From Escherichia phage phiA2-1, in sequence record OR861626.1: a stretch of DNA of 44,857 nucleotides. One strand, 5' to 3'. A program made the translations under genes and the position numbers. This document shows, piece after piece, positions 20,857-41,733 of this stretch. Below the pieces are notes generated by a model. The model was not told the origin of the DNA and ran no database searches. It was given only the letters and a program-made list of their open reading frames with translations. The stretch's first letter is position 1. Every line of letters starts with the position of its first letter.

Positions 20857-21467
20857 TCCTAAGATTTGAGGAGTTAACTAAGTTCTTTTCCTCAATTTGA
20901 GGAGGAGTTGACAGCACCATTGCCGCCACGCGCCTAAATATACCTAAAGATAGCCAGTTGTCTTTAGCAAATCGTGCTATTTATCGACAATTTCACCATA
21001 AATCACAGTTACACGTAACCGATGTAACTCGATGTATACAATCTCATCCGCGGGAAATGATATACGCGCTGTTACGCCAATTTACGCATTGGTTACATTA
21101 AAATATCTATATATATCAACCTTTTACTCTTATTATTATTATTATATATATTACTGTGTATATCATGTAACTACTTCTATAGAGTGTTCCGGTTATAATT
21201 TTAATATCATGTGGATTTATACAGTATTGCGCGGCAGCTATACCAATGCACCCTCAGCGAGAAACGGCATACACGATATACACGATGTTTACATTGAGCT
21301 ATGGCTGGCTTGAGATGCCAAAAAGCGTAACTAGTGCCAATGCCTACACGAAATTACAAAGATTCACGCGTAAACTTAAATCAACGATTTGCAAAACCAA
21401 TTGGACTGGTTACGGTGCTGAATATATAGTTACCTCATCGAAAGCAATCAACCAGAGAGATATATAA
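20857..21467. promoter_or_regulatory. Large AT-rich divergent control region with (TTA)n and (TA)n tracts
   Basis: 611 nt without a credible ORF; (TTA)5 near 21127..21145; TATATATAT; palindrome CCTCAAATTGAGG; separates minus-strand block from plus-strand early block. Confidence 0.4.
20920..20981 (-). promoter_or_regulatory. Promoter-like cassette (minus orientation) for the 20832 gene
   Basis: Minus strand AATAGCACGATTTGCTAAAG, 22 nt, TATATT. Confidence 0.45.
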
Positions 21468-21662
21468 ATGACCTACTACATTATCAAAGAGAAAAACAAT
21501 GCACTGTTCGGCGACTGCTACTTTGGCGGCCAGGCTGGATACACCACAGATAAGAGTGAGGCCGACAGGTTCGAGACAAAGGAAGAGGCCAAAGGACTGC
21601 TGACAGGATACTTCACTGAAGAAGATTTGAAGGCAATCAAGATTGTTAAAATTAAGGTTTGA
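21468..21662 (+). CDS. Hypothetical protein (first gene of plus-strand early block)
   Basis: 64-aa ORF after GAGAGA RBS-like sequence. Confidence 0.35.
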   Translation: MTYYIIKEKNNALFGDCYFGGQAGYTTDKSEADRFETKEEAKGLLTGYFTEEDLKAIKIVKIKV

Positions 21663-23398: not shown

Positions 23399-23830
23399 AT
23401 GAGTCACGTAATCACTGGTGTTATCCGTCGCGCTCCGTTCACTAAAGAAGGTCAGAATGCCAATGGCACCTGGAAGATGTACGCAGTTGATTTAAACGAG
23501 CGATACAAGGATAAAGATGGACAGGCGCATTATAGCAACTATCGCGCCGTGTTCTTCGCCAAAGAATCAATGCTTGCTTGGTACGATGAGGCTTTCCAGG
23601 AGGGGAAGGTTGTTAGCGTAAGTTGTGAAACATTGGCTGTAGACGTTCGTGATAAAGATGGTAAAACTTATGTAACAATCAACATGAACAACCCGCGACT
23701 TGAGTTTAGTCAGCGTGGTGAAGGTGTCCAGCAACAACAGCAACAGCAAAAACCACAACAGCAACAGCAACAACAGCAGCAGCGTCAACCTCAACAGCAG
23801 AAGAACTTCGAGGATGATATCCCCTTCTGA
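23399..23830 (+). CDS. ssb: Single-stranded DNA-binding protein with Gln-rich linker
   Basis: 143 aa; OB-fold-like N-terminus; poly-Q linker; acidic C-terminal tail ending DDIPF. Confidence 0.75.
   Translation: MSHVITGVIRRAPFTKEGQNANGTWKMYAVDLNERYKDKDGQAHYSNYRAVFFAKESMLAWYDEAFQEGKVVSVSCETLAVDVRDKDGKTYVTINMNNPRLEFSQRGEGVQQQQQQQKPQQQQQQQQQRQPQQQKNFEDDIPF
23720..23800 (+). repeat. (CAR)n trinucleotide repeat encoding the poly-Q linker of SSB
   Basis: CAGCAACAACAGCAACAGCAA...CAACAGCAGCAGCGTCAACCTCAACAGCAG. Confidence 0.6.
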
Positions 23831-25012: not shown

Positions 25013-25036
25013 ATAAAAAACCTCCCGAAGGAGGTT
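25013..25036 (-). terminator. Rho-independent terminator (minus strand) after the primase-like gene
   Basis: ACCTCC-CGAA-GGAGGT hairpin with A-run on plus strand (U-run on minus). Confidence 0.45.
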
Positions 25037-25958
25037 AGTTTATTAAGTCGTTGGCTTTGTACACTTTCTTGCGTATGCCTGTTTTAAATGACTTACCGTC
25101 ATTGGGAATCACCACATCAACATTGCGATCGTCAGCAACAGCAAGGATATCGATATCATAATCATGGCAAGCAATTCTGAACTTCCTTGACTTGTCGCGG
25201 TGTATAACCATCTCCATATTGTAACAGGAGAAAGCAACAAACACCTCGCGACCCCCAGTAGCAAGGTGAACACGTACGCCATCAATATAATTGTCAACAA
25301 CATAAGTATAACTATTGTCCTGCCTAGAACCAATGACAGCAACAGAATCACGAGTATAATCACCAGCAAGGAACTTAACATTTGAATCCTCATCAATAAA
25401 CATTACGTTACAGAACTCATCACCAAGCCCATCCTCATAAACCATGGAGCAAGGCACGGCATGAATCATTGAACCATCTTTAGCTATACCAACATCAAAA
25501 CCAGATTCAGAGTATATACCCTCATATGTCGTGAGTGGACTTGAGTCAACTCGCTGAGTTCTCCCCATGACCTCCAAAACTTTTTCATGGTCTACTTGAG
25601 CGCCCATCTTATAACGATGAGTTCTGGATGCTTGCTTGTTTGCTTTAACTATAACCTCAATTGGTGTTAAGTTCAGCCAGTCACCAAGCAAATTTACTGA
25701 ATCGGCGAAGGACGATCCAGTGCACTTCATGACCCATCCTATACCGGAGTCACTTCCGCATTTCGAACAAACTGCCGCGCCATTTCCTTTTTCACTGCCT
25801 ATTTCGTCGGTAAATCTGAATCTGTCAGTGCCAAAGCAGTATGGGCATGGTCCGTGCTTCTTACTTAGGTGTCTATCATTCCAACCAAGTTCCTTTGCAT
25901 AAAATGATTTCCACAATCCGGCCATCTTAGGTATAACTTCATTCTTATCGTAATTCAT
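25035..25958 (-). CDS. DNA primase-like protein (zinc-ribbon plus TOPRIM-like region)
   Basis: CPYC...CSKCG zinc-binding motif; acidic AVADDRNVD segment; located in replication block. Confidence 0.45.
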   Translation of the reverse strand: MNYDKNEVIPKMAGLWKSFYAKELGWNDRHLSKKHGPCPYCFGTDRFRFTDEIGSEKGNGAAVCSKCGSDSGIGWVMKCTGSSFADSVNLLGDWLNLTPIEVIVKANKQASRTHRYKMGAQVDHEKVLEVMGRTQRVDSSPLTTYEGIYSESGFDVGIAKDGSMIHAVPCSMVYEDGLGDEFCNVMFIDEDSNVKFLAGDYTRDSVAVIGSRQDNSYTYVVDNYIDGVRVHLATGGREVFVAFSCYNMEMVIHRDKSRKFRIACHDYDIDILAVADDRNVDVVIPNDGKSFKTGIRKKVYKANDLIN

Positions 25959-26486: not shown

Positions 26487-26960
26487 TTAATCTTTAGCTT
26501 TTCGTGCTGCCTCGTTAGCAATCTTATTCTTGCGCCATGGTCGACATGATGGCTTAGTTGCTAGTTCGGCTTCGGTAACTACGCGAAGCATATGGCGTTT
26601 CTTGCATCGAAGTGTTAGCGGCTTTCCATTCCCGTCGAATTGCAAGTCAGGTCGGCAGAATGTAGCTCGAAAACCTTCCTTATTTCGCTTGTACGCATTG
26701 TGAGCTTTCTGCGCACCTCGAGCTGAAATCATGCCGCGATCAAACCACTGCTCTACAGTCTGGTGAGATACATTTAACTGTTTTGCGATGTTCGCCTTTG
26801 TGCCGTAGAAATCAAGAACCATCTCCAGACGTGCCCTGAGGCCAGCCCTCACCTCATCCTTTAATACGTAGTAACCTGAAGGTCGTTTGCGCTGCTTCTT
26901 GTCTTGTGTGCGTACCGTTCCGTTATTACCGTTAATTGTTCTCTTGTCAATTTCACACAT
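26487..26960 (-). CDS. Putative HTH DNA-binding protein
   Basis: 157 aa, basic; HTH-like segment TKANIAKQLNVSHQTVEQWFDRG. Confidence 0.4.
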   Translation of the reverse strand: MCEIDKRTINGNNGTVRTQDKKQRKRPSGYYVLKDEVRAGLRARLEMVLDFYGTKANIAKQLNVSHQTVEQWFDRGMISARGAQKAHNAYKRNKEGFRATFCRPDLQFDGNGKPLTLRCKKRHMLRVVTEAELATKPSCRPWRKNKIANEAARKAKD

Positions 26961-27056: not shown

Positions 27057-29051
27057 ATGCATCCAGTAGAGCGCTTAGTAGCCAACTTTGATCAAGAGAA
27101 GATTAAGCAGATTCAGAAGGATTATCAGTTTGGAAATATTACGCCGTATCCATTCCAGTGCGTGACATTCGACCAAATAGGTAAGCACATTGCTAAGTAC
27201 GAAGCGCCATTCATAGCAGACCTTTCTGTATCTGCTGGTAAGACAATCATTCTTGCCATGATTGGGAAACGCATGGAGCAGCTTGGCCTTCCTTATATGG
27301 TGCTATCTCGCCAGTCTGAGATTATCAGCCAGAACGCTGAAGAGCTTCGTAACTTCGGCATCCGTAATAGCGTATATTGCGCTGGCCTTAACGTTAAATC
27401 AGTTTACTACCCAACTATAGTGGCTAGTGAGGGAACGGCTGCCAACGGCTTGTTTAAGGGCCTTGGTGACTACGTTCCTGCTGTTATCGCGATAGATGAG
27501 GCGCACATGGTGGACCACATGGATATCGTAGAAGCTGAAGAGAACGAGGAAACATTCGAGCAGATGAGCACAAAGAAAGGTGAGATGGTTTTCAAGGATG
27601 GAGTGAATACCGGATTGCTTGGCACTGGTCGTGCGAAGTACACGCTAATCATTACCGAGATGAAGCGACGCTGCAAAGAGAAGTATGGTCGCGAGCTACG
27701 TATTTTCGGTTTGACTGGTAGCCCGTACCGTAACAACGACCACATTGTAGTTAGTAACCCAAATGTTCGTGGATTCTGGCGTAAGACGGTAATGCAGGTT
27801 CCAACCAGTTACCTTGTTGAATTTGGCTTCGTGGTTCCTACTGTTTACGGCGAGGTTGGCGATTTGGGTTATGACCTTAGTGAGTTCGCGCCTGATGGAA
27901 GTGATGGCGTTAAGGATTTCAGCAAAAAAGAAATGGACGCAATGGCTGAAAAGATTCATGAAAACCAGACCATGACGCAGAAAATTATGAAGTTCGTTAT
28001 CAAGCTACTTGAAACGCGTAACGCCGCATTGGTAACTTGCGCTAGCAAAATGCACTGTAGCGAAGCGGCAGCCGCGCTACCTGATGGCTATCCTTACGCG
28101 ATAATCACTGATTCTACTGGTGAGAAGAAAAGAAGGGAGATTCTCGATGAATGCAATAAAGGAAAGTACAAGATCATATTCCAGATTGGGTGCTTAACAA
28201 CAGGCGTGAACCAACCTTTGTGGGATACTAGTGTGATTCTTCGCAAGATTGGTAGCCTTACACTCATGATTCAGTTACTTGGTAGGGGGATGCGTAAGCT
28301 TAAAAAATGTCACGTTGAAGCTGGATTCCAGAAGGATGACCATGTGGTTCTTGACTTCGCTGGCGCTCTTGATGATATGGCTGAGATTTACTTTGACCCG
28401 ATTATTGAAGAGATTCAGAATGAGAAATTCAAATCATCACGCAATGGTGGAGATGAAGTAAGGATGTGTCCTCAATGTGGTTATGAGAATTCACCGTTCG
28501 CTCGACGTTGCAACAATAAGATAGATGGAGTTAGGTGTGATCACTTCTTTACTTTTGCATTATGTGAAGATATAAAGGATACGCAGACTGGAGTTATTAC
28601 CAAGAAGGGTTGTGGTGCTCGTAACGATATAGCAGCTAAGTGCTGTCGAGAATGCGGCGAGCAAATGAAGGACCCGAATGCCAACCTAACCGGTAAGATG
28701 TACCGCCGCGGAGATTACCTTCGTGTTTACGGATTTGAACTTGGACTTAGCAAGAACCAGTCAGGAATCGTAGTTAAGTACGATATCATGGCTCACACCG
28801 GTGAGCGCTTTAATGCATGGGAATTCTTCAATCCAGAGTCTGAACATAGGGTTTGCAGTGTTCTATGGAAGAACTTTTGCCTTGCTCATATAGAGAGTCG
28901 CGCTGAGGCCACAAGAATTGGCATACTTCGCAATGCGAGAATGATTATGACGAATGCCAGCAAGTTTCGAGCGCCAGTACAAGTTACACACAGAAAAAAC
29001 GGCAAGGGTAAAGATGTTATAGCTCATAAAATATTTGGAGAATTGCAATGA
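27057..29051 (+). CDS. ATP-dependent DNA helicase (SF2, DEAH-type) with C-terminal zinc-ribbon motifs
   Basis: Walker A SAGKT, motif II AIDEAHM, QLLGRGMR; C-terminal CPQCG and CCRECG. Confidence 0.7.
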   Translation: MHPVERLVANFDQEKIKQIQKDYQFGNITPYPFQCVTFDQIGKHIAKYEAPFIADLSVSAGKTIILAMIGKRMEQLGLPYMVLSRQSEIISQNAEELRNFGIRNSVYCAGLNVKSVYYPTIVASEGTAANGLFKGLGDYVPAVIAIDEAHMVDHMDIVEAEENEETFEQMSTKKGEMVFKDGVNTGLLGTGRAKYTLIITEMKRRCKEKYGRELRIFGLTGSPYRNNDHIVVSNPNVRGFWRKTVMQVPTSYLVEFGFVVPTVYGEVGDLGYDLSEFAPDGSDGVKDFSKKEMDAMAEKIHENQTMTQKIMKFVIKLLETRNAALVTCASKMHCSEAAAALPDGYPYAIITDSTGEKKRREILDECNKGKYKIIFQIGCLTTGVNQPLWDTSVILRKIGSLTLMIQLLGRGMRKLKKCHVEAGFQKDDHVVLDFAGALDDMAEIYFDPIIEEIQNEKFKSSRNGGDEVRMCPQCGYENSPFARRCNNKIDGVRCDHFFTFALCEDIKDTQTGVITKKGCGARNDIAAKCCRECGEQMKDPNANLTGKMYRRGDYLRVYGFELGLSKNQSGIVVKYDIMAHTGERFNAWEFFNPESEHRVCSVLWKNFCLAHIESRAEATRIGILRNARMIMTNASKFRAPVQVTHRKNGKGKDVIAHKIFGELQ

Positions 29052-29467
29052 AAATTACAGATAAGGTTGATTACCTTGAGTTCTACGGAGGCGCAGTTGA
29101 GTCATGCCCAAAGGAAGACGACGAACAAATCTTTTGCTCTGACTGGGTTAAGTATAACTATCCGCAAGTTGTTTACTGGCACACAGTTAATGAATCAATG
29201 AAGAGTATTGGTCAGGCAAGGAAAGACCAGGCTAAAGGACTCCTTAAAGGAGTATCAGACTGCTTATTCTTAATACCTGAGTCATTGCGAGGTAGTTATC
29301 CATTTGGAGCCATAGAATTGAAGAGGGCAGGTAAAACACAAGCTAGTCCGGTAAGTGACGAGCAGAAGTCATTCCTAAAAAGTGTAAGAGAATCAGGAGG
29401 TTTCGCCGCTGTAGCCTATGGCAGGGAGGGTTTTCTTGCTGCATTCGAAGAGATGATCAGGAAATAG
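29048..29467 (+). CDS. VRR-NUC-like nuclease (PD-(D/E)XK fold, putative)
   Basis: 139 aa; GVSDCLFLIPE...GAIELKR segment; overlaps helicase stop. Confidence 0.5.
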   Translation: MKITDKVDYLEFYGGAVESCPKEDDEQIFCSDWVKYNYPQVVYWHTVNESMKSIGQARKDQAKGLLKGVSDCLFLIPESLRGSYPFGAIELKRAGKTQASPVSDEQKSFLKSVRESGGFAAVAYGREGFLAAFEEMIRK

Positions 29468-34226: not shown

Positions 34227-35810
34227 TCACCCCAACAGTCGTGGATTAATGTAAATCTTATCGCCAATCAGGCACGTATAGTTTTTCTCATCAAGCATCG
34301 GAACCAAGTGGTCTTTTATGCGAGTCATGACTCCAGCCTGAGCTTCGAAAGGCTTAACCTTGCGCGCTGCTTCATATAATGAGCGAATACCAACAACGCC
34401 CTTCCCATTCTTGCCCTGCTTAATCAGGATATCAACCAGCTTGTTCATCTCCGCATTGTCACCAGCATGACCAGCAGCACTAGCAGATGACAAATACGTC
34501 TTGCTTAGTTCGTGGAAAATCATAACCGCTTCCTGCATTGTCTCAAGTTCAATCTCTCTGGACTTCTGAGGACTCGACCCGGCTGGCGCGAACCAGTTGC
34601 GAATAACATGCAGAACAGAAGCGATACGAATTGCTTGCTTATCAAACTTACCTAGCGCACCACGTAACATTGTGTGGGAATACTTACCGCCATCACCAAG
34701 ATGCGGCTCCATCTCCTGACGAGCGCGGTTGAGGTAACGCATGGATGACGCACTTACAGTCAGTTTCACTTCAACTTCATTCATAATCTCATGAACGAGC
34801 CGGAAGTAATCAGCCTTCAACCCACCATCAATAGCCTCATAGGTTGAATCTCCATTCTCATCAACAAACACACGGTCGCCAAGGAATGACTTTTCACGCA
34901 CCAGAAGAAAACGTTCAGATACACCAATACCACGCGCACCAGCATTCATAATAGCATTGATTGTTTCATCCTGAGCAATTACAGAAATACATCCCATAGC
35001 CACAAAACTCATGTTGTTTTCTGCGTTAGCGCGCGCAATAGATACGTTACCAGCATCCCACGCCTTAAGCACTAGCTCGCTGTTCGTTTTCTTTGAGCCA
35101 TCTCCGTATGTCATGCCAAGCAGTGAGTTTACGCTTGTTGCCTCATCCGAGATTACAGCAAAGTTTCCCTGTCGGTTGTTTATTCGCGCAAGACCTTCCG
35201 GCGTAGTATCGGAGACCGGGAATACTATATCGCATAGCTTCTCGAGCTTTTCCTCTAAATCCTCCTTCTCTTCAAATAGTGATGCCATCTCAGAAGGTGA
35301 CTTCTCCTGCTTCATCTCTTTTGATAGAGCGGATAGCTTAGCCATAATCTTTTTGCGGTCACGCTTGCGCACTTCATTCAACCGCTCAGTCTCAGCGATC
35401 ATTGGCGCAATAGATAGTGAGTTGATGGCAGATTTACCAGTTGAGGGAGGCTGGCTTGTTACAACGTACAAAGATGTTGGCTGCTGAGTTCCATGATATT
35501 CAACCGTAAAGCGCCCAAGCATTGCAGCAGACACGCAACCCAGAAAGTGCATGTAAGCTGAAGACTCTGGAAACTGAACTGAACGAGCAATATTGGCAGA
35601 TAGCTTACCAACGATATCAATGTCATTACCTAATGATATGACAGGATACTTGTCATTACCTGCATCAATCTCGACAGGTGTTTTCCAGAATGATTGTGAT
35701 TGTCGATAACCATTTGCATTAATGGCCACGCGCAGGGGTGGGAGGTTGTCATTGGCGGCAATTGCCATAACCTGTTCAACAGATAGTTTATCTTCGTTGA
35801 AATCAAACAT
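34227..35810 (-). CDS. P-loop NTPase, putative replicative helicase
   Basis: 527 aa; Walker A-like SQPPSTGKSA; N- and C-termini repeated in the truncated paralog at 38698. Confidence 0.45.
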   Translation of the reverse strand: MFDFNEDKLSVEQVMAIAANDNLPPLRVAINANGYRQSQSFWKTPVEIDAGNDKYPVISLGNDIDIVGKLSANIARSVQFPESSAYMHFLGCVSAAMLGRFTVEYHGTQQPTSLYVVTSQPPSTGKSAINSLSIAPMIAETERLNEVRKRDRKKIMAKLSALSKEMKQEKSPSEMASLFEEKEDLEEKLEKLCDIVFPVSDTTPEGLARINNRQGNFAVISDEATSVNSLLGMTYGDGSKKTNSELVLKAWDAGNVSIARANAENNMSFVAMGCISVIAQDETINAIMNAGARGIGVSERFLLVREKSFLGDRVFVDENGDSTYEAIDGGLKADYFRLVHEIMNEVEVKLTVSASSMRYLNRARQEMEPHLGDGGKYSHTMLRGALGKFDKQAIRIASVLHVIRNWFAPAGSSPQKSREIELETMQEAVMIFHELSKTYLSSASAAGHAGDNAEMNKLVDILIKQGKNGKGVVGIRSLYEAARKVKPFEAQAGVMTRIKDHLVPMLDEKNYTCLIGDKIYINPRLLG

Positions 35811-37449: not shown

Positions 37450-37521
37450 TCTTATGTACTTCGTTTCGATGAGATGATTATGGTCTCCTTGCCAATGAAT
37501 GTCTTTAGCAAAAAGTGCTAT
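37450..37521 (-). promoter_or_regulatory. Promoter-like cassette (minus orientation)
   Basis: Minus strand AATAGCACTTTTTGCTAAAG, ~24 nt, CATAAT, CATCGAAACGAAG leader. Confidence 0.45.
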
Positions 37522-38149
37522 TCGTTGGATTTATTGATTGTTGAAGCTACTGCAATGATTCACATCATTATTGCACGTATAGCAATATTGCATTTAATGC
37601 AATGATGTTTTTGATTGTTGCAGAATTTGCAATGATTGATGTGGGATTGAATGAATAGAGGATGGACTACCATACAAGTTGATTTTGATTCTGGCTGAGC
37701 CACTTTTCTGTATACGCGTAACGCCTGTATACTCACTGTAGTCACAAAAGTAAGTGACCACTAACATACGTTTTTTACGCAGCATATACACTTGACATAC
37801 ACTATAAGTATATAATATATATATACTTCTTCTTTATTATTATTATTATTATTATATGTATACCGTGTATACCGCTCATTGATGGAATAGTTGATATGTT
37901 CCTCTGTTATATTCTGACACACGTCAGAATTGGATGACACTTGTCAGAATAAAAAGGCGCATATATAGGAAATCAGCTCAAAAAACCGTATACAGAGGAT
38001 ACTGCAAGGTTACAACCAGTGCTGGCGCGGCTTTGAGTGCCGAAGGGCGTAACTATGATGAAATATACTAAAATATACATTGACAGACACGTAAATCACT
38101 GGCACTATAGCAATCACTGAAACGCAGTACACAACAACGAGGTATTGAG
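37522..38149. promoter_or_regulatory. Large divergent control region with direct repeats, inverted repeats and a (TTA)7 tract
   Basis: TGCAATGAT x3 (about 37550, 37597, 37627); TGTATAC x4; GTCACAAAAGTAAGTGAC; TTGACA and TATAAT; (TTA)7 at about 37834..37856; GTCAGAAT x2. Confidence 0.45.
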
Positions 38150-41655: not shown

Positions 41656-41733
41656 GCTCTGCTAGCTCAATTGGATAGAAGCAACGACCTTCTAAGTCGT
41701 AGGTTACTGGTTCGAATCCAGTGCGGAGCGCCA
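41656..41733 (+). tRNA. tRNA-Arg (anticodon UCU), CCA encoded
   Basis: Hand-folded cloverleaf: acceptor GCTCTGC/GCGGAGC (one G-U), D-arm with GG, anticodon stem ACGAC/GTCGT with loop CTTCTAA, T-arm ACTGG-TTCGAAT-CCAGT, 3' GCCA. Confidence 0.7.

What the first reader, a model, noticed from the sequence alone, without database searches (positions are those of the whole stretch)
20857..21467. Second AT-rich control region sharing (TTA)n and (TA)n tracts with the 37.8-kb region
A 611-nt intergenic region between divergent blocks carries (TTA)5, (TA)n, a palindrome CCTCAAATTGAGG in the long 5' leader of the minus-strand Rha-like gene, and a minus-oriented cassette. The two track ORFs inside it have implausible composition. 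A shared microsatellite at both control regions suggests a common protein-binding or DNA-bending element.
Basis: seen in the sequence. Interest (0 to 1): 0.4.

Follow-up and report, generated by a model that had tools for sequence, protein, structure and literature searches.

The report
Conserved duplicated AT-rich phage control module
The (TTA)n/(TA)n tract is not a stray microsatellite: it is the easily melted centre of a non-coding DNA module that every T1-like phage examined keeps in two copies, flanked by short phased protein-binding-type repeats, and it is the best current candidate for the still unmapped replication origin of this phage family.

Summary
Positions 20857-21467 are a 611-nt gap between a leftward anti-repressor gene and the rightward 64-aa/exoVIII/Erf/SSB block of an Rtp-like (T1-like, Drexlerviridae) coliphage. 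(TTA)5, the (TA) runs, the palindrome and a minus-oriented promoter repeat are all present.

The two ORFs inside are not coding. They show no third-codon-position excess, and in-frame stops fall at different places in relatives.

The similarity to the 37.8-kb region goes far beyond a microsatellite. About 175 nt (21008-21184) are paralogous to 37711-37873, and a profile finds exactly two same-oriented copies per genome. The core is more conserved than the neighbouring genes.

In six Drexlerviridae genomes from four subfamilies or genera, the two copies are the two least stable duplex stretches of the genome. They are flanked by lineage-specific short repeats that occur almost only there: TGTATAC/GTAAC here, TGTAACA in T1, and GTAAGAT in a Klebsiella phage (14 of 19 copies).

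Best reading (about 0.45): an origin-type assembly site, with iteron-like arrays plus an unwinding element, present twice. Rivals are a sigma70 early promoter with (TTA)5 as spacer, or operator arrays. No experiment settles this.

The parts
20857..20962 (-). Promoter-proximal region and 5' leader of the anti-repressor gene. Contains a -10-like TATATT at 20942-20937, the direct repeat ATTTGAGGAG (20864-20873 and 20895-20904), and the palindrome.
   Evidence: This stretch is present only in IME253-type relatives.
20891..20903 (.). 13-nt perfect palindrome CCTCAATTTGAGG in the leader of the minus-strand gene.
   Evidence: Read directly. Not conserved outside the closest relatives. RNA folding of the leader is unremarkable (z -0.8).
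20963..20980 (-). T1-family 21-nt direct repeat (ATAGCACGATTTGCTAAA), the upstream half of a phage-specific promoter class. It points leftward.
   Evidence: 17 copies in the window against 0.57 expected. Each is followed about 20 nt later by a -10-like hexamer, and most are then followed by the leader motif CATCGAAACGAAA. The repeat is described for TLS, T1 and Rtp in PMC11447400.
21008..21184 (+). Core module, copy A: an ultra-conserved non-coding element.
   Evidence: nhmmer finds two copies per genome. Mean pairwise divergence is 0.054, and 0-0.02 at 21108-21167, against 0.22 in exoVIII. The module is conserved into Rogunavirinae.
21015..21039 (+). Left repeat array: GTAAC (21015), GTAAC (21024) and GTATAC (21034), 9-10 nt apart.
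   Evidence: Invariant block CGTAAC.GATGTAACTCGATGTATACAAT in the alignment.
21048..21053 (.). Conserved CCGCGG palindrome between the two arrays.
   Evidence: In Rtp, TCCGCGG occurs 6 times in the genome, all within the two control regions.
21063..21098 (+). Phased array: TACGC at 21063, 21073 and 21083 (exactly 10 nt apart), then TTACAT at 21093.
   Evidence: The same 10-nt phasing is read in the Rtp B copy, the T1 B copy (ATTACGCC x2) and Rogunavirinae (spacings 9, 10 and 11 nt).
21099..21152 (.). A+T-rich tract and candidate DNA unwinding element. Contains (TA)4 at 21108-21116, an IHF-consensus TATCAACCTTTTA at 21114-21126, (TTA)5 at 21130-21144, and TATATATT.
   Evidence: Second least stable 60-nt duplex window of the genome (z 5.0); the least stable is copy B (z 5.6) and the next best is 3.1. 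IHF pattern.
21123..21152 (+). Candidate sigma70 promoter TTTACT-18-TATATT, with (TTA)5 as its spacer (rival reading).
   Evidence: 9 of 12 matches; the number of such sites in the region is not above shuffles. phiSITE predictions at the same place in phage EC3a.
21155..21171 (+). Right-hand boundary motif TGTGTATATCATGTAAC. The form TGTATAnCnTGT is kept in the A and B copies of Braunvirinae, Rogunavirinae and T1.
21185..21400 (.). Less conserved right flank carrying further motif copies: ATACACGAT x2 at 21269-21286, TTTACATTGAGCTATGGCTGG at 21288-21308, and CGTAAC at 21326.
   Evidence: Blocks are shared with the B copies of Rtp, CY1, DTL, BEK2 and AugustePiccard.
21032..21313 (+). ORF of 93 aa. 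Not a gene; it reads through (TTA)5 as YYYYY.
   Evidence: Divergence by codon position is 0.079/0.114/0.117. It overlaps the DNA-level conserved module, which is also kept in the non-coding B paralog.
21246..21467 (+). ORF of 73 aa. Not a gene. It is in frame with the 64-aa gene and separated from it by TAA.
   Evidence: It is annotated as an N-terminal extension (132-143 aa proteins) in Rtp and EC3a, but stops at -1, -39, -71, -85 and -96 codons break it in different phages.
21384..21447 (+). Proximal rightward promoter and leader: degenerate repeat ACGATTTGCAAAA (21384-21396), TGGACT-17-TATAGT (21402-21430), and leader CATCGAAAGCAA (21436-21447).
   Evidence: (I8).
21468..21662 (+). Real 64-aa gene, the first gene of the rightward recombination operon.
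   Evidence: Third-position excess of 0.286. PHROG 5247 and 35664.
37711..37873 (+). Core module, copy B. Contains (TA)5 at 37816-37825, (TTA)7 at 37834-37854, and TGTATACCG x2 at 37857-37874.
   Evidence: Least stable duplex window of the genome.
37504..37640 (.). Left part of control region B: leftward repeat (37504-37521, minus strand), then a block of TGCAATGAT-type repeats that relatives use as the genome start or pac site.
34227..35810 (-). DUF3987 protein: an MCM-like AAA+ ATPase with a C-terminal winged helix. It is a candidate (unproven) origin-binding helicase.

Best explanation
The gap is one of two paralogous copies of the non-coding control region of T1-like phages. Between a leftward phage-specific promoter (repeat at 20963-20980) and a rightward proximal promoter (21402-30) lies a 175-nt module.

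The module consists of arrays of short motifs (GTAAC/GTATAC, and TACGC x3 exactly 10 bp apart), a 55-nt tract that is over 90% A+T ((TA)4...(TTA)5...TATATATT), and the boundary motif TGTATATCATGTAAC, with more motif copies further right.

I propose that it is an origin-type nucleoprotein assembly site. A phage-encoded sequence-specific protein would load on the phased repeats on both sides and open the A+T tract, which is the easiest DNA in the genome to melt. Negative supercoiling from flanking transcription may help. The phage primase, the MCM-like helicase and the host polymerase could then start replication.

On this reading (TTA)n is merely this lineage's version of the unwinding element. 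The 37.8-kb copy would be a second origin or an auxiliary cis site, as in SPP1 oriL/oriR or P4 ori/crr.

**Shown:** non-coding status, paralogy, conservation, minimal duplex stability, and motif confinement. **Inferred:** protein binding, unwinding, and replication function.
For: - **Two copies.** Exactly two same-oriented copies per genome in the window, Rtp, TR1 and Rogue1. T1 and TLS each have their own A/B pair (scores 66 and 63 against about 23 +/- 2.7).
- **Least stable DNA.** In the window, Rtp, T1, Rogue1, TR1 and Klebsiella phage KP1801, the two copies are the two least stable 60-nt duplex windows (z 4.5-5.8, next best 3.1-3.8). This holds even where the primary sequence has diverged.
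- **Conservation.** The core is more conserved than the adjacent genes (0.054 against 0.13-0.22).
- **Motifs confined to the two regions, differing by lineage.**
  - Window: TGTATAC, 7 of 9 genome copies; TGTATA, 12 of 29.
  - T1: TGTAACA, 6 of 6.
  - Rtp: TCCGCGG, 6 of 6.
  - KP1801: GTAAGAT, 14 of 19, p 4e-19, in roughly 10-bp-spaced clusters on both sides of the A+T tract.
  - TLS: GTGAACA/GAACA repeats.
- **Phasing.** 10-bp phasing is kept in paralogs.
- **Own promoters.** Flanking genes have their own promoters.
- **Position in KP1801.** There the module lies between two co-oriented genes, next to the primase gene, so a divergent junction is not the conserved property.
- **Replication genes.** The phage encodes a P4-alpha-like primase (E 3e-14) and an MCM-like helicase with a winged helix, but no polymerase. 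A 2024 paper states that no origin or iterons are known for this family (PMC11447400).
- **Analogous architecture.** The annotated P4 origin has the same layout: 8-mers 10-11 bp apart flanking an A+T tract, plus a second cis site.
Against: - There is no experimental evidence of any kind for replication initiation here.
- In this window the motifs are short and degenerate. The apparent dyad symmetry of the left array is not significant (score 16 against 16.2 +/- 3.8).
- There are no DnaA boxes and no GATC sites.
- An unwinding element does not need a fixed length or near-100% identity, yet (TTA)5 is invariant in every Braunvirinae A copy seen. That fits a spacing constraint such as a promoter spacer.
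- Copy B lies about 200 nt from the presumed pac site, so another DNA transaction cannot be excluded.
- The candidate binding protein is unidentified. The winged helix of the DUF3987 protein resembles MCM winged helices, not the P4 origin-binding domain.
Confidence: 0.45

Rival explanations
1. The module is a strong host-sigma70 early promoter. TTTACT (21123) is the -35 element, the 18-nt (TTA)5-containing stretch is the spacer, TATATT (21147-21152) is the -10 element, the (TA)-rich DNA upstream acts as an UP element, and the phased TACGC sites bind an activator or repressor. It would fire rightward and give a long-leader transcript of the recombination operon. It might also prime replication, as at T7 or T4 origins.
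For: - Consensus scan hit with 9 of 12 matches.
- Independent in-silico promoter calls in EC3a and AHP42 within the module.
- The hexamers and the 17-18 nt spacing are kept in the Braunvirinae and Rogunavirinae A copies and in the Rtp and Rogue1 B copies.
Against: - The number of promoter-like sites in the region is not above shuffles (6 against 3.0 +/- 1.9).
- In 5 of 9 B copies the tract has 6-8 units, and in most of the nine no -35 element lies at the right distance.
- KP1801-B keeps TTTTTACTC(TTA)4 but has no -10 element 17-18 nt away.
- The operon has its own proximal promoter and conserved leader.
- The roughly 300-nt leader would show no coding and no RNA-structure signal.
- Conservation covers every spacer base and about 100 nt upstream, more than a promoter needs.
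Confidence: 0.25
2. The arrays are operators or enhancer sites for a phage transcription factor, for example the gp23/rtp52-type HTH regulator (26487-26960). This factor would switch the two early rightward promoters and the leftward repeat-type promoters, possibly by looping across the flexible A+T tract. On this reading there is no role in replication.
For: - The motif sets are confined to the two control regions and differ by lineage, as expected for sites that co-evolve with a phage DNA-binding protein.
- GTTAC and CGTAA copies also overlap the proximal promoters: 21409 and 21429 in A, and 38074-38095 in B.
- Both regions head early operons.
- An HTH regulator is encoded.
Against: - It does not explain why the two modules are the least stable DNA of the genome in all six genomes examined, across four subfamilies or genera.
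- It does not explain why the A+T tract is the most conserved part.
- Most motif copies lie 250-400 nt from the promoters.
Confidence: 0.2
3. The region encodes small proteins (ORFs 21032-21313 and 21246-21467) or a structured non-coding RNA.
For: - ORF 21246-21467 is annotated in IME253, and as part of longer proteins in Rtp and EC3a.
- PHROG 35664 contains such long forms.
Against: - No third-position excess.
- Frame-breaking stops at different positions.
- The same sequence blocks are kept in the B paralog upstream of an unrelated gene.
- No Rfam family matches in this region.
- Folding z-scores lie between -1.2 and +1.9.
Confidence: 0.04
4. Chance or neutral microsatellites in A+T-rich intergenic DNA, with no specific function.
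For: Intergenic DNA is often A+T-rich. Copy B's repeat number drifts between 4 and 8.
Against: - (TTA)4 is expected 0.03 times in the window and occurs only at these two sites.
- The flanks are paralogous.
- The core shows 0-2% divergence among genera whose genes differ by about 20%.
- The arrangement recurs from E. coli to Klebsiella phages.
Confidence: 0.02

Closest known systems
Satellite phage P4 ori plus crr (alpha-protein type-1 iterons TGTTCACC)
   Same: - 8-mer repeats 10-11 bp apart in both orientations flank an A+T-rich stretch.
- A second cis-acting copy of the repeats lies kilobases away (P4 record).
- The window's primase is homologous to the primase domain of P4 alpha (E 3e-14).
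- TLS's repeats (GTGAACA) share 7 of 8 bases with the P4 iteron.
   Different: - TGTTCACC does not occur in this window's two regions.
- No homolog of the alpha helicase or origin-binding domain was found.
- Here the two copies are full paralogs that each include the A+T tract, whereas crr is only a repeat array.
Bacillus phage SPP1 oriL / oriR
   Same: From my own knowledge: a pac-type siphovirus with two separated, related origin sequences. Each consists of repeated boxes bound by the initiator plus an A+T-rich region.
   Different: There is no sequence or protein homology (SPP1 uses G38P and a DnaB-type helicase). The comparison rests on memory and was not tested here.
Lambda ori and SaPI ori (iterons plus an A+T-rich unwinding region)
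   Same: Phased short repeats lie next to, or on both sides of, an easily melted tract. The arrangement in KP1801 (clusters on both sides) resembles the SaPI layout as I recall it.
   Different: Lambda ori lies inside the initiator gene. The motifs here are shorter and more degenerate, and the initiator is unknown.
T7 primary origin and T4 oriF/oriG (a promoter coupled to an A+T-rich unwinding element)
   Same: A promoter-like element is embedded in or next to an A+T tract. This would reconcile the promoter reading and the origin reading.
   Different: No phage RNA polymerase or MotA-type activator is known here, and no transcription start has been mapped.
T1-family 21-nt intergenic direct repeat (TLS DR1-18; PMC11447400)
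   Same: The copy at 20963-20980 (minus strand), and the one at 37504-37521, match the published consensus aaATAGCACnnnTTGnTAAAA. They point in the direction of transcription.
   Different: This repeat is only the left border of the finding. The (TTA)n module is a separate element that the paper does not describe.

Membership tests
Iteron-type replication origin | Several copies of a short motif, helically phased, concentrated at the site | tested here: met
   - TACGC x3 exactly 10 nt apart, plus TTACAT; GTAAC/GTAAC/GTATAC 9-10 nt apart.
- TGTATAC: 7 of 9 genome copies lie in the two regions.
- The pattern is much clearer in KP1801: GTAAGAT, 14 of 19 copies.
- In this window the motifs are short and degenerate.
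Iteron-type replication origin | Adjacent A+T-rich DNA unwinding element | tested here: met
   The two modules are the two least stable 60-nt duplex windows in six genomes. This is a nearest-neighbour energy estimate, not a supercoiling (SIDD) calculation.
Iteron-type replication origin | Bound and opened by a cognate initiator; supports initiation of DNA synthesis | not testable with these tools
   Only candidates can be named: the MCM-like DUF3987 protein with a winged helix, the HTH regulator, and the primase.
P4 ori/crr system | Type-1 iteron TGTTCACC and an alpha-type origin-binding domain | tested here: not met
   There are no GTGAACA/GTTCAC copies in the window's regions. Only the primase domain of alpha has a homolog. 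The winged helix does not match the P4 domain.
Sigma70 promoter | -35 and -10 hexamers 16-18 nt apart, kept in homologous copies | tested here: inconclusive
   TTTACT-18-TATATT is present and kept in A copies. It is lost in most B copies and in KP1801-B. The count of sites is not above shuffles.
T1-family direct repeat / phage-specific promoter | ATAGCACnnnTTGnTAAA oriented with transcription, followed by a -10-like hexamer | tested here: met
   The copy at 20963-20980 (minus strand) has 0 mismatches, with TATATT downstream.
Variable (contingency) microsatellite | Repeat number differs among close isolates | tested here: not met
   Copy A has 5 units in all Braunvirinae sequences, including 8 metagenome contigs. 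Copy B differs between species, from 4 to 8 units.
Protein-coding gene | Excess of third-position substitutions and a conserved open frame | tested here: not met
Structured RNA family | Rfam match or unusually stable fold | tested here: not met
Host-factor sites (DnaA, IHF) | Consensus boxes, conserved | tested here: inconclusive
   No DnaA box lies in A or B. IHF consensus occurs at 21114-21126 and 21379-21391 (2 of 5 in the window), but the first is not kept in Rogunavirinae or in the Rtp B copy.

The most novel reading that the evidence does not exclude
T1-like phages (Drexlerviridae) carry two paralogous replication origins, or an origin plus an obligatory second cis site. Each would be an unwinding element flanked by lineage-specific iterons, read by a rapidly co-evolving phage initiator, possibly the MCM-like DUF3987 helicase through its winged helix. 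If so, this window's 21.1-kb and 37.8-kb modules give the first map position for the origin of a classic but neglected phage family.
Probability: 0.35. Interest if true: 0.6.

Novelty: new member of a known kind. Interest (0 to 1): 0.5.

Why it matters
T1 is one of the original T phages, yet the most recent family-level description states that no origin or iterons have been found (PMC11447400). The paired modules give a concrete site of under 200 bp that can be tested.

The lineage-specific motifs (GTAAC/TGTATAC, TGTAACA, GTGAACA, GTAAGAT) offer a natural covariation handle for finding the protein that reads them.

On the practical side:
- Annotation pipelines currently call spurious proteins across this DNA, such as the 132-143-aa 'hypothetical proteins' and PHROG 35664.
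- The module is a stable, highly conserved marker for Rtp-like phages, which are notorious fermentation contaminants.

Tried and rejected
- **Coding ORFs.** Rejected by codon-position divergence and by stops at variable positions.
- **Structured RNA.** No Rfam match in this region and unremarkable folding z-scores.
- **LexA box.** TACTGT...ACAGTA half-sites are 49 nt apart and not conserved in Rogunavirinae, so this idea was dropped after reading.
- **Dyad symmetry.** A large dyad symmetry of the left array around CCGCGG is not significant in the window.
- **DnaA boxes and GATC clusters.** None.
- **Copies elsewhere.** No copies of the module in E. coli chromosomes or plasmids, for example in satellites.
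- **Search for relatives.** The search for related loci with exoVIII on viral contigs returned nothing usable.
- **P4-type origin-binding domain.** Not found by BLAST or tblastn or by fold search of the C-terminal winged helix.
- **Literature.**
  - A search for the P4 iteron string was uninformative.
  - The Rtp genome paper is not held.
  - No paper held describes an origin or a transcription map for this family.
- **Metagenome pattern scan.** Most of the 95 hits were chance matches; only 8 were true modules.
Full report
**What the window is.** The 1.6 kb around the finding is 92% identical to Escherichia phages IME253 and TR3. It is 82-87% identical to Rtp and other Braunvirinae (Drexlerviridae, the T1-like siphoviruses). 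The gap 20857-21467 lies between a leftward anti-repressor gene (PHROG 8235, E 6e-83) and a rightward block. That block is a 64-aa gene followed by exonuclease VIII, an Erf-type annealing protein and SSB.

**Checking the observation.**
- (TTA)5.3 is at 21130-21145 and (TTA)7.3 at 37834-37855. These are the only two sites with (TTA)4 or more in the window, against 0.03 expected.
- (TA) runs flank both tracts.
- The 13-nt palindrome is at 20891-20903. It occurs only in the closest relatives.
- The 'minus-oriented cassette' is a copy (20963-20980) of the T1-family repeat ATAGCACnnnTTGnTAAA. The window has 17 copies against 0.57 expected. The repeat was published for TLS, T1 and Rtp as an element of unknown function (PMC11447400).

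**The ORFs are not genes.**
- Among seven distinct Braunvirinae sequences, the real 64-aa gene and exoVIII show the expected excess of third-position change (0.064/0.046/0.286 and 0.144/0.111/0.41).
- ORF 21246-21467 shows 0.157/0.158/0.117, and ORF 21032-21313 shows 0.079/0.114/0.117.
- ORF 21246-21467 is in frame with the 64-aa gene. In Rtp and EC3a the two are annotated as one protein of 132-143 aa.
- The upstream frame is nevertheless closed at codons -1, -39, -71, -85 or -96 in different phages, while the ATG at 21468 is kept in all.

**The shared element is a paralogous module, not a microsatellite.**
- A local alignment of the two gaps gives a colinear match of about 70 nt (score 62; shuffles 22.8 +/- 2.9).
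- A profile built from region-A copies of relatives (21000-21185) finds exactly two same-oriented copies in each complete genome examined:
  - window: 21008-21184 and 37711-37873 (E 7e-9, full length);
  - Rtp: 28004-28180 and 131-301 (E 2e-30);
  - likewise TR1 and Rogue1.
- In Rtp, CY1, DTL, BEK2 and AugustePiccard the paralogy continues rightward through blocks such as TACATTGAGCTATAGCTGG and GCGTAAC, as far as the proximal rightward promoter.
- The whole control region is therefore an ancient duplication. Copy B has an extra block of TGCAATGAT-type repeats, which several records use as the genome start or label as the packaging initiation site.

**Conservation.**
- The core 21010-21180 has a mean pairwise divergence of 0.054. 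At 21108-21167 this falls to 0-0.02. The 64-aa gene is at 0.13 and exoVIII at 0.22.
- BLAST finds 21010-21182 at about 80-84% identity in Rogunavirinae as well.
- The string TATTATTATTATTATATATATTACT[GA]TGTATAT is invariant in the 14 aligned copies of Braunvirinae and Rogunavirinae (13 A copies plus the Rtp B copy). AHP42 departs from it.
- The module has no match in E. coli chromosomes or in plasmids.

**Anatomy of copy A.** From left to right:

| Position | Feature |
|---|---|
| 20963-20980 | leftward promoter repeat |
| 21015, 21024, 21034 | GTAAC, GTAAC, GTATAC |
| 21048-21053 | conserved CCGCGG |
| 21063, 21073, 21083 | TACGC, exactly 10 nt apart |
| 21093 | TTACAT |
| 21099-21152 | tract over 90% A+T, containing (TA)4, an IHF-consensus site, (TTA)5 and TATATATT |
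| 21155-21171 | TGTGTATATCATGTAAC |
| 21185-21400 | less conserved flank with more copies of the same words, mostly in the opposite orientation |
| 21384-21396 | degenerate rightward repeat |
| 21402-21430 | TGGACT-17-TATAGT |
| 21436-21447 | leader CATCGAAAGCAA |
| 21468 | start of the 64-aa gene |

The 10-nt phasing of the TACGC-type words is kept in the Rtp B copy, in the T1 B copy (ATTACGCC twice) and in Rogunavirinae. An apparent large dyad symmetry of the left array is not significant in this window.

**A family-wide property.**
- T1 (Tunavirinae) and TLS (Tempevirinae) have the same two long gaps. Within each genome the two gaps share a 90-130-nt A+T-rich module (scores 66 and 63 against about 23 +/- 2.7). 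T1 has no pure (TTA)n run; TLS keeps only a short one.
- In the window, Rtp, T1, Rogue1, TR1 and the Klebsiella Webervirus KP1801, the two modules are the two least stable 60-nt duplex windows of the genome (z 4.5-5.8; next best 3.1-3.8).
- In each genome examined for this, some short words occur almost only in the two regions, and these words differ by lineage:
  - window: TGTATAC, 7 of 9 copies, and TGTATA, 12 of 29;
  - T1: TGTAACA, 6 of 6;
  - Rtp: TCCGCGG, 6 of 6;
  - TLS: GTGAACA/GAACA;
  - KP1801: GTAAGAT, 14 of 19 (p 4e-19), in clusters about 10 bp apart on both sides of the A+T tract.
- In KP1801 copy A lies between the primase and exonuclease genes, which point the same way. A divergent junction is therefore not the conserved feature. 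The conserved feature is repeats plus meltable DNA.

**Repeat number.** Copy A has five TTA units in every Braunvirinae sequence seen. This includes eight metagenome contigs found with a pattern that allowed 2-10 units. Rogunavirinae have four. Copy B has 4, 4, 4, 6, 6, 7, 8, 8 and 8 units in nine phages.

**Promoters.**
- Each T1-family repeat is followed about 20 nt later by a -10-like hexamer. Most are then followed by a conserved leader CATCGAAACGAAA. These repeats are therefore the upstream halves of a phage-specific promoter class.
- The rightward operon of region A has its own proximal promoter and leader. TLS's published sigma70-like promoters P01 and P51 sit at the corresponding places.
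- Inside the module, TTTACT-18-TATATT (21123-21152) is a candidate sigma70 promoter with (TTA)5 as its spacer. Other annotators predicted promoters there.
- Its geometry is kept in the A copies and in the Rtp and Rogue1 B copies. It is lost in most other B copies and in KP1801-B.

**Candidate proteins.**
- The primase (25035-25958) is homologous to the primase domain of P4 alpha (E 3e-14).
- The DUF3987 protein (34227-35810) gives a confident model (pLDDT 88). Its best structural matches are MCM helicases (E 1e-5 to 1e-3), with weaker matches to Orc1/Cdc6. Its last 88 residues form a winged helix closest to the MCM4 winged helix.
- No P4-type origin-binding domain was found.
- A 157-aa HTH regulator is also encoded.

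**Interpretation.** Five properties are shown directly: the region is non-coding, duplicated, ultra-conserved, minimal in duplex stability, and flanked by phased lineage-specific motifs that are confined to the two sites. Together they match the architecture of iteron-plus-unwinding-element origins. The annotated P4 origin is an example. A two-site arrangement has precedents in P4 ori/crr and, from my own knowledge, SPP1 oriL/oriR.

I therefore rank an origin-type assembly site first, at about 0.45. The fixed length of (TTA)5 in copy A is the best argument for the rival promoter reading (about 0.25). The two readings are compatible if a promoter primes or activates the origin, as in T7 and T4. 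A purely transcriptional operator or enhancer array is third (about 0.2). No experiment or transcript map for this family was found in the literature held. A 2024 paper says the origin is unknown.

**Verdict.** This is a real, conserved and apparently undescribed cis element of a known general kind. It is moderately interesting because it makes the unmapped origin of T1-like phages directly testable.

Noticed in passing
window 6588, 19755(-), 22634, 29464, 32056, 36475(-), 37521(-), 40077 and others: Each T1-family repeat ATAGCACnnnTTGnTAAA is followed about 20 nt later by a -10-like hexamer. About 5 nt after that, most are followed by a conserved leader CATCGAAACGAAA, then an AGAGAG-type ribosome-binding site. 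The TTGCTA-to--10 spacing of about 22 nt is too long for a sigma70 -35 element. This looks like a phage-specific (middle or late?) promoter class plus a shared 5'-UTR element of unknown role.
   Followed up: partly
window 37530-37640: A highly conserved block of TGCAATGAT / TATTGCA / GATTGTTGC repeats lies just left of module B. Several relatives' records start or end inside it (the Rtp record's end corresponds to window 37580). The TR1 record labels the spot as the initial packaging site, so this is probably pac, about 4.4 kb upstream of the terminase genes.
   Followed up: partly
window 21246-21662; Rtp rtp46; EC3a gp44; PHROG 35664: Public annotations fuse the non-coding stretch to the real 64-aa gene, giving 132-143 aa 'hypothetical proteins'. 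One PHROG family is built on these over-extended forms.
   Followed up: yes
window 34227-35810 (-): The DUF3987 'DNA helicase' of T1-like phages folds like an MCM-type AAA+ ATPase with a C-terminal winged helix (Foldseek E 1e-5 to MCM5; winged helix TM 0.70 to the MCM4 winged helix).
   Followed up: partly
window 37912-37929 and 37936-37947: Two related palindromes (TTCTGACACACGTCAGAA and TGACACTTGTCA) lie between module B and the first rightward gene. They are shared with TR1 and Sd1 but not with the other B copies. They may be operators.
   Followed up: no
window 23729-23799: The SSB gene carries an imperfect CAG/CAA repeat encoding a poly-glutamine linker before the acidic DDIPF tail.
   Followed up: no
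window 41656-41733: A tRNA-Arg(TCT) gene lies upstream of the terminase genes.
   Followed up: no
phage records MG065688.1 and PP134917.1 (hits H17, H24): Records named 'Campylobacter phage A110b' and 'Pseudomonas phage PsgS01F' are 81-83% identical to this E. coli Rtp-like phage across the region. The host attribution looks doubtful (contaminant coliphage?).
   Followed up: no
L026-L028 (TLS 28707-29117; 49708-588): TLS's repeats around its two modules (CGTGAACA, GTTCAC) share 7 of 8 bases with the P4 type-1 iteron TGTTCACC. This may be coincidence, or it may hint at a shared type of origin-binding domain.
   Followed up: partly
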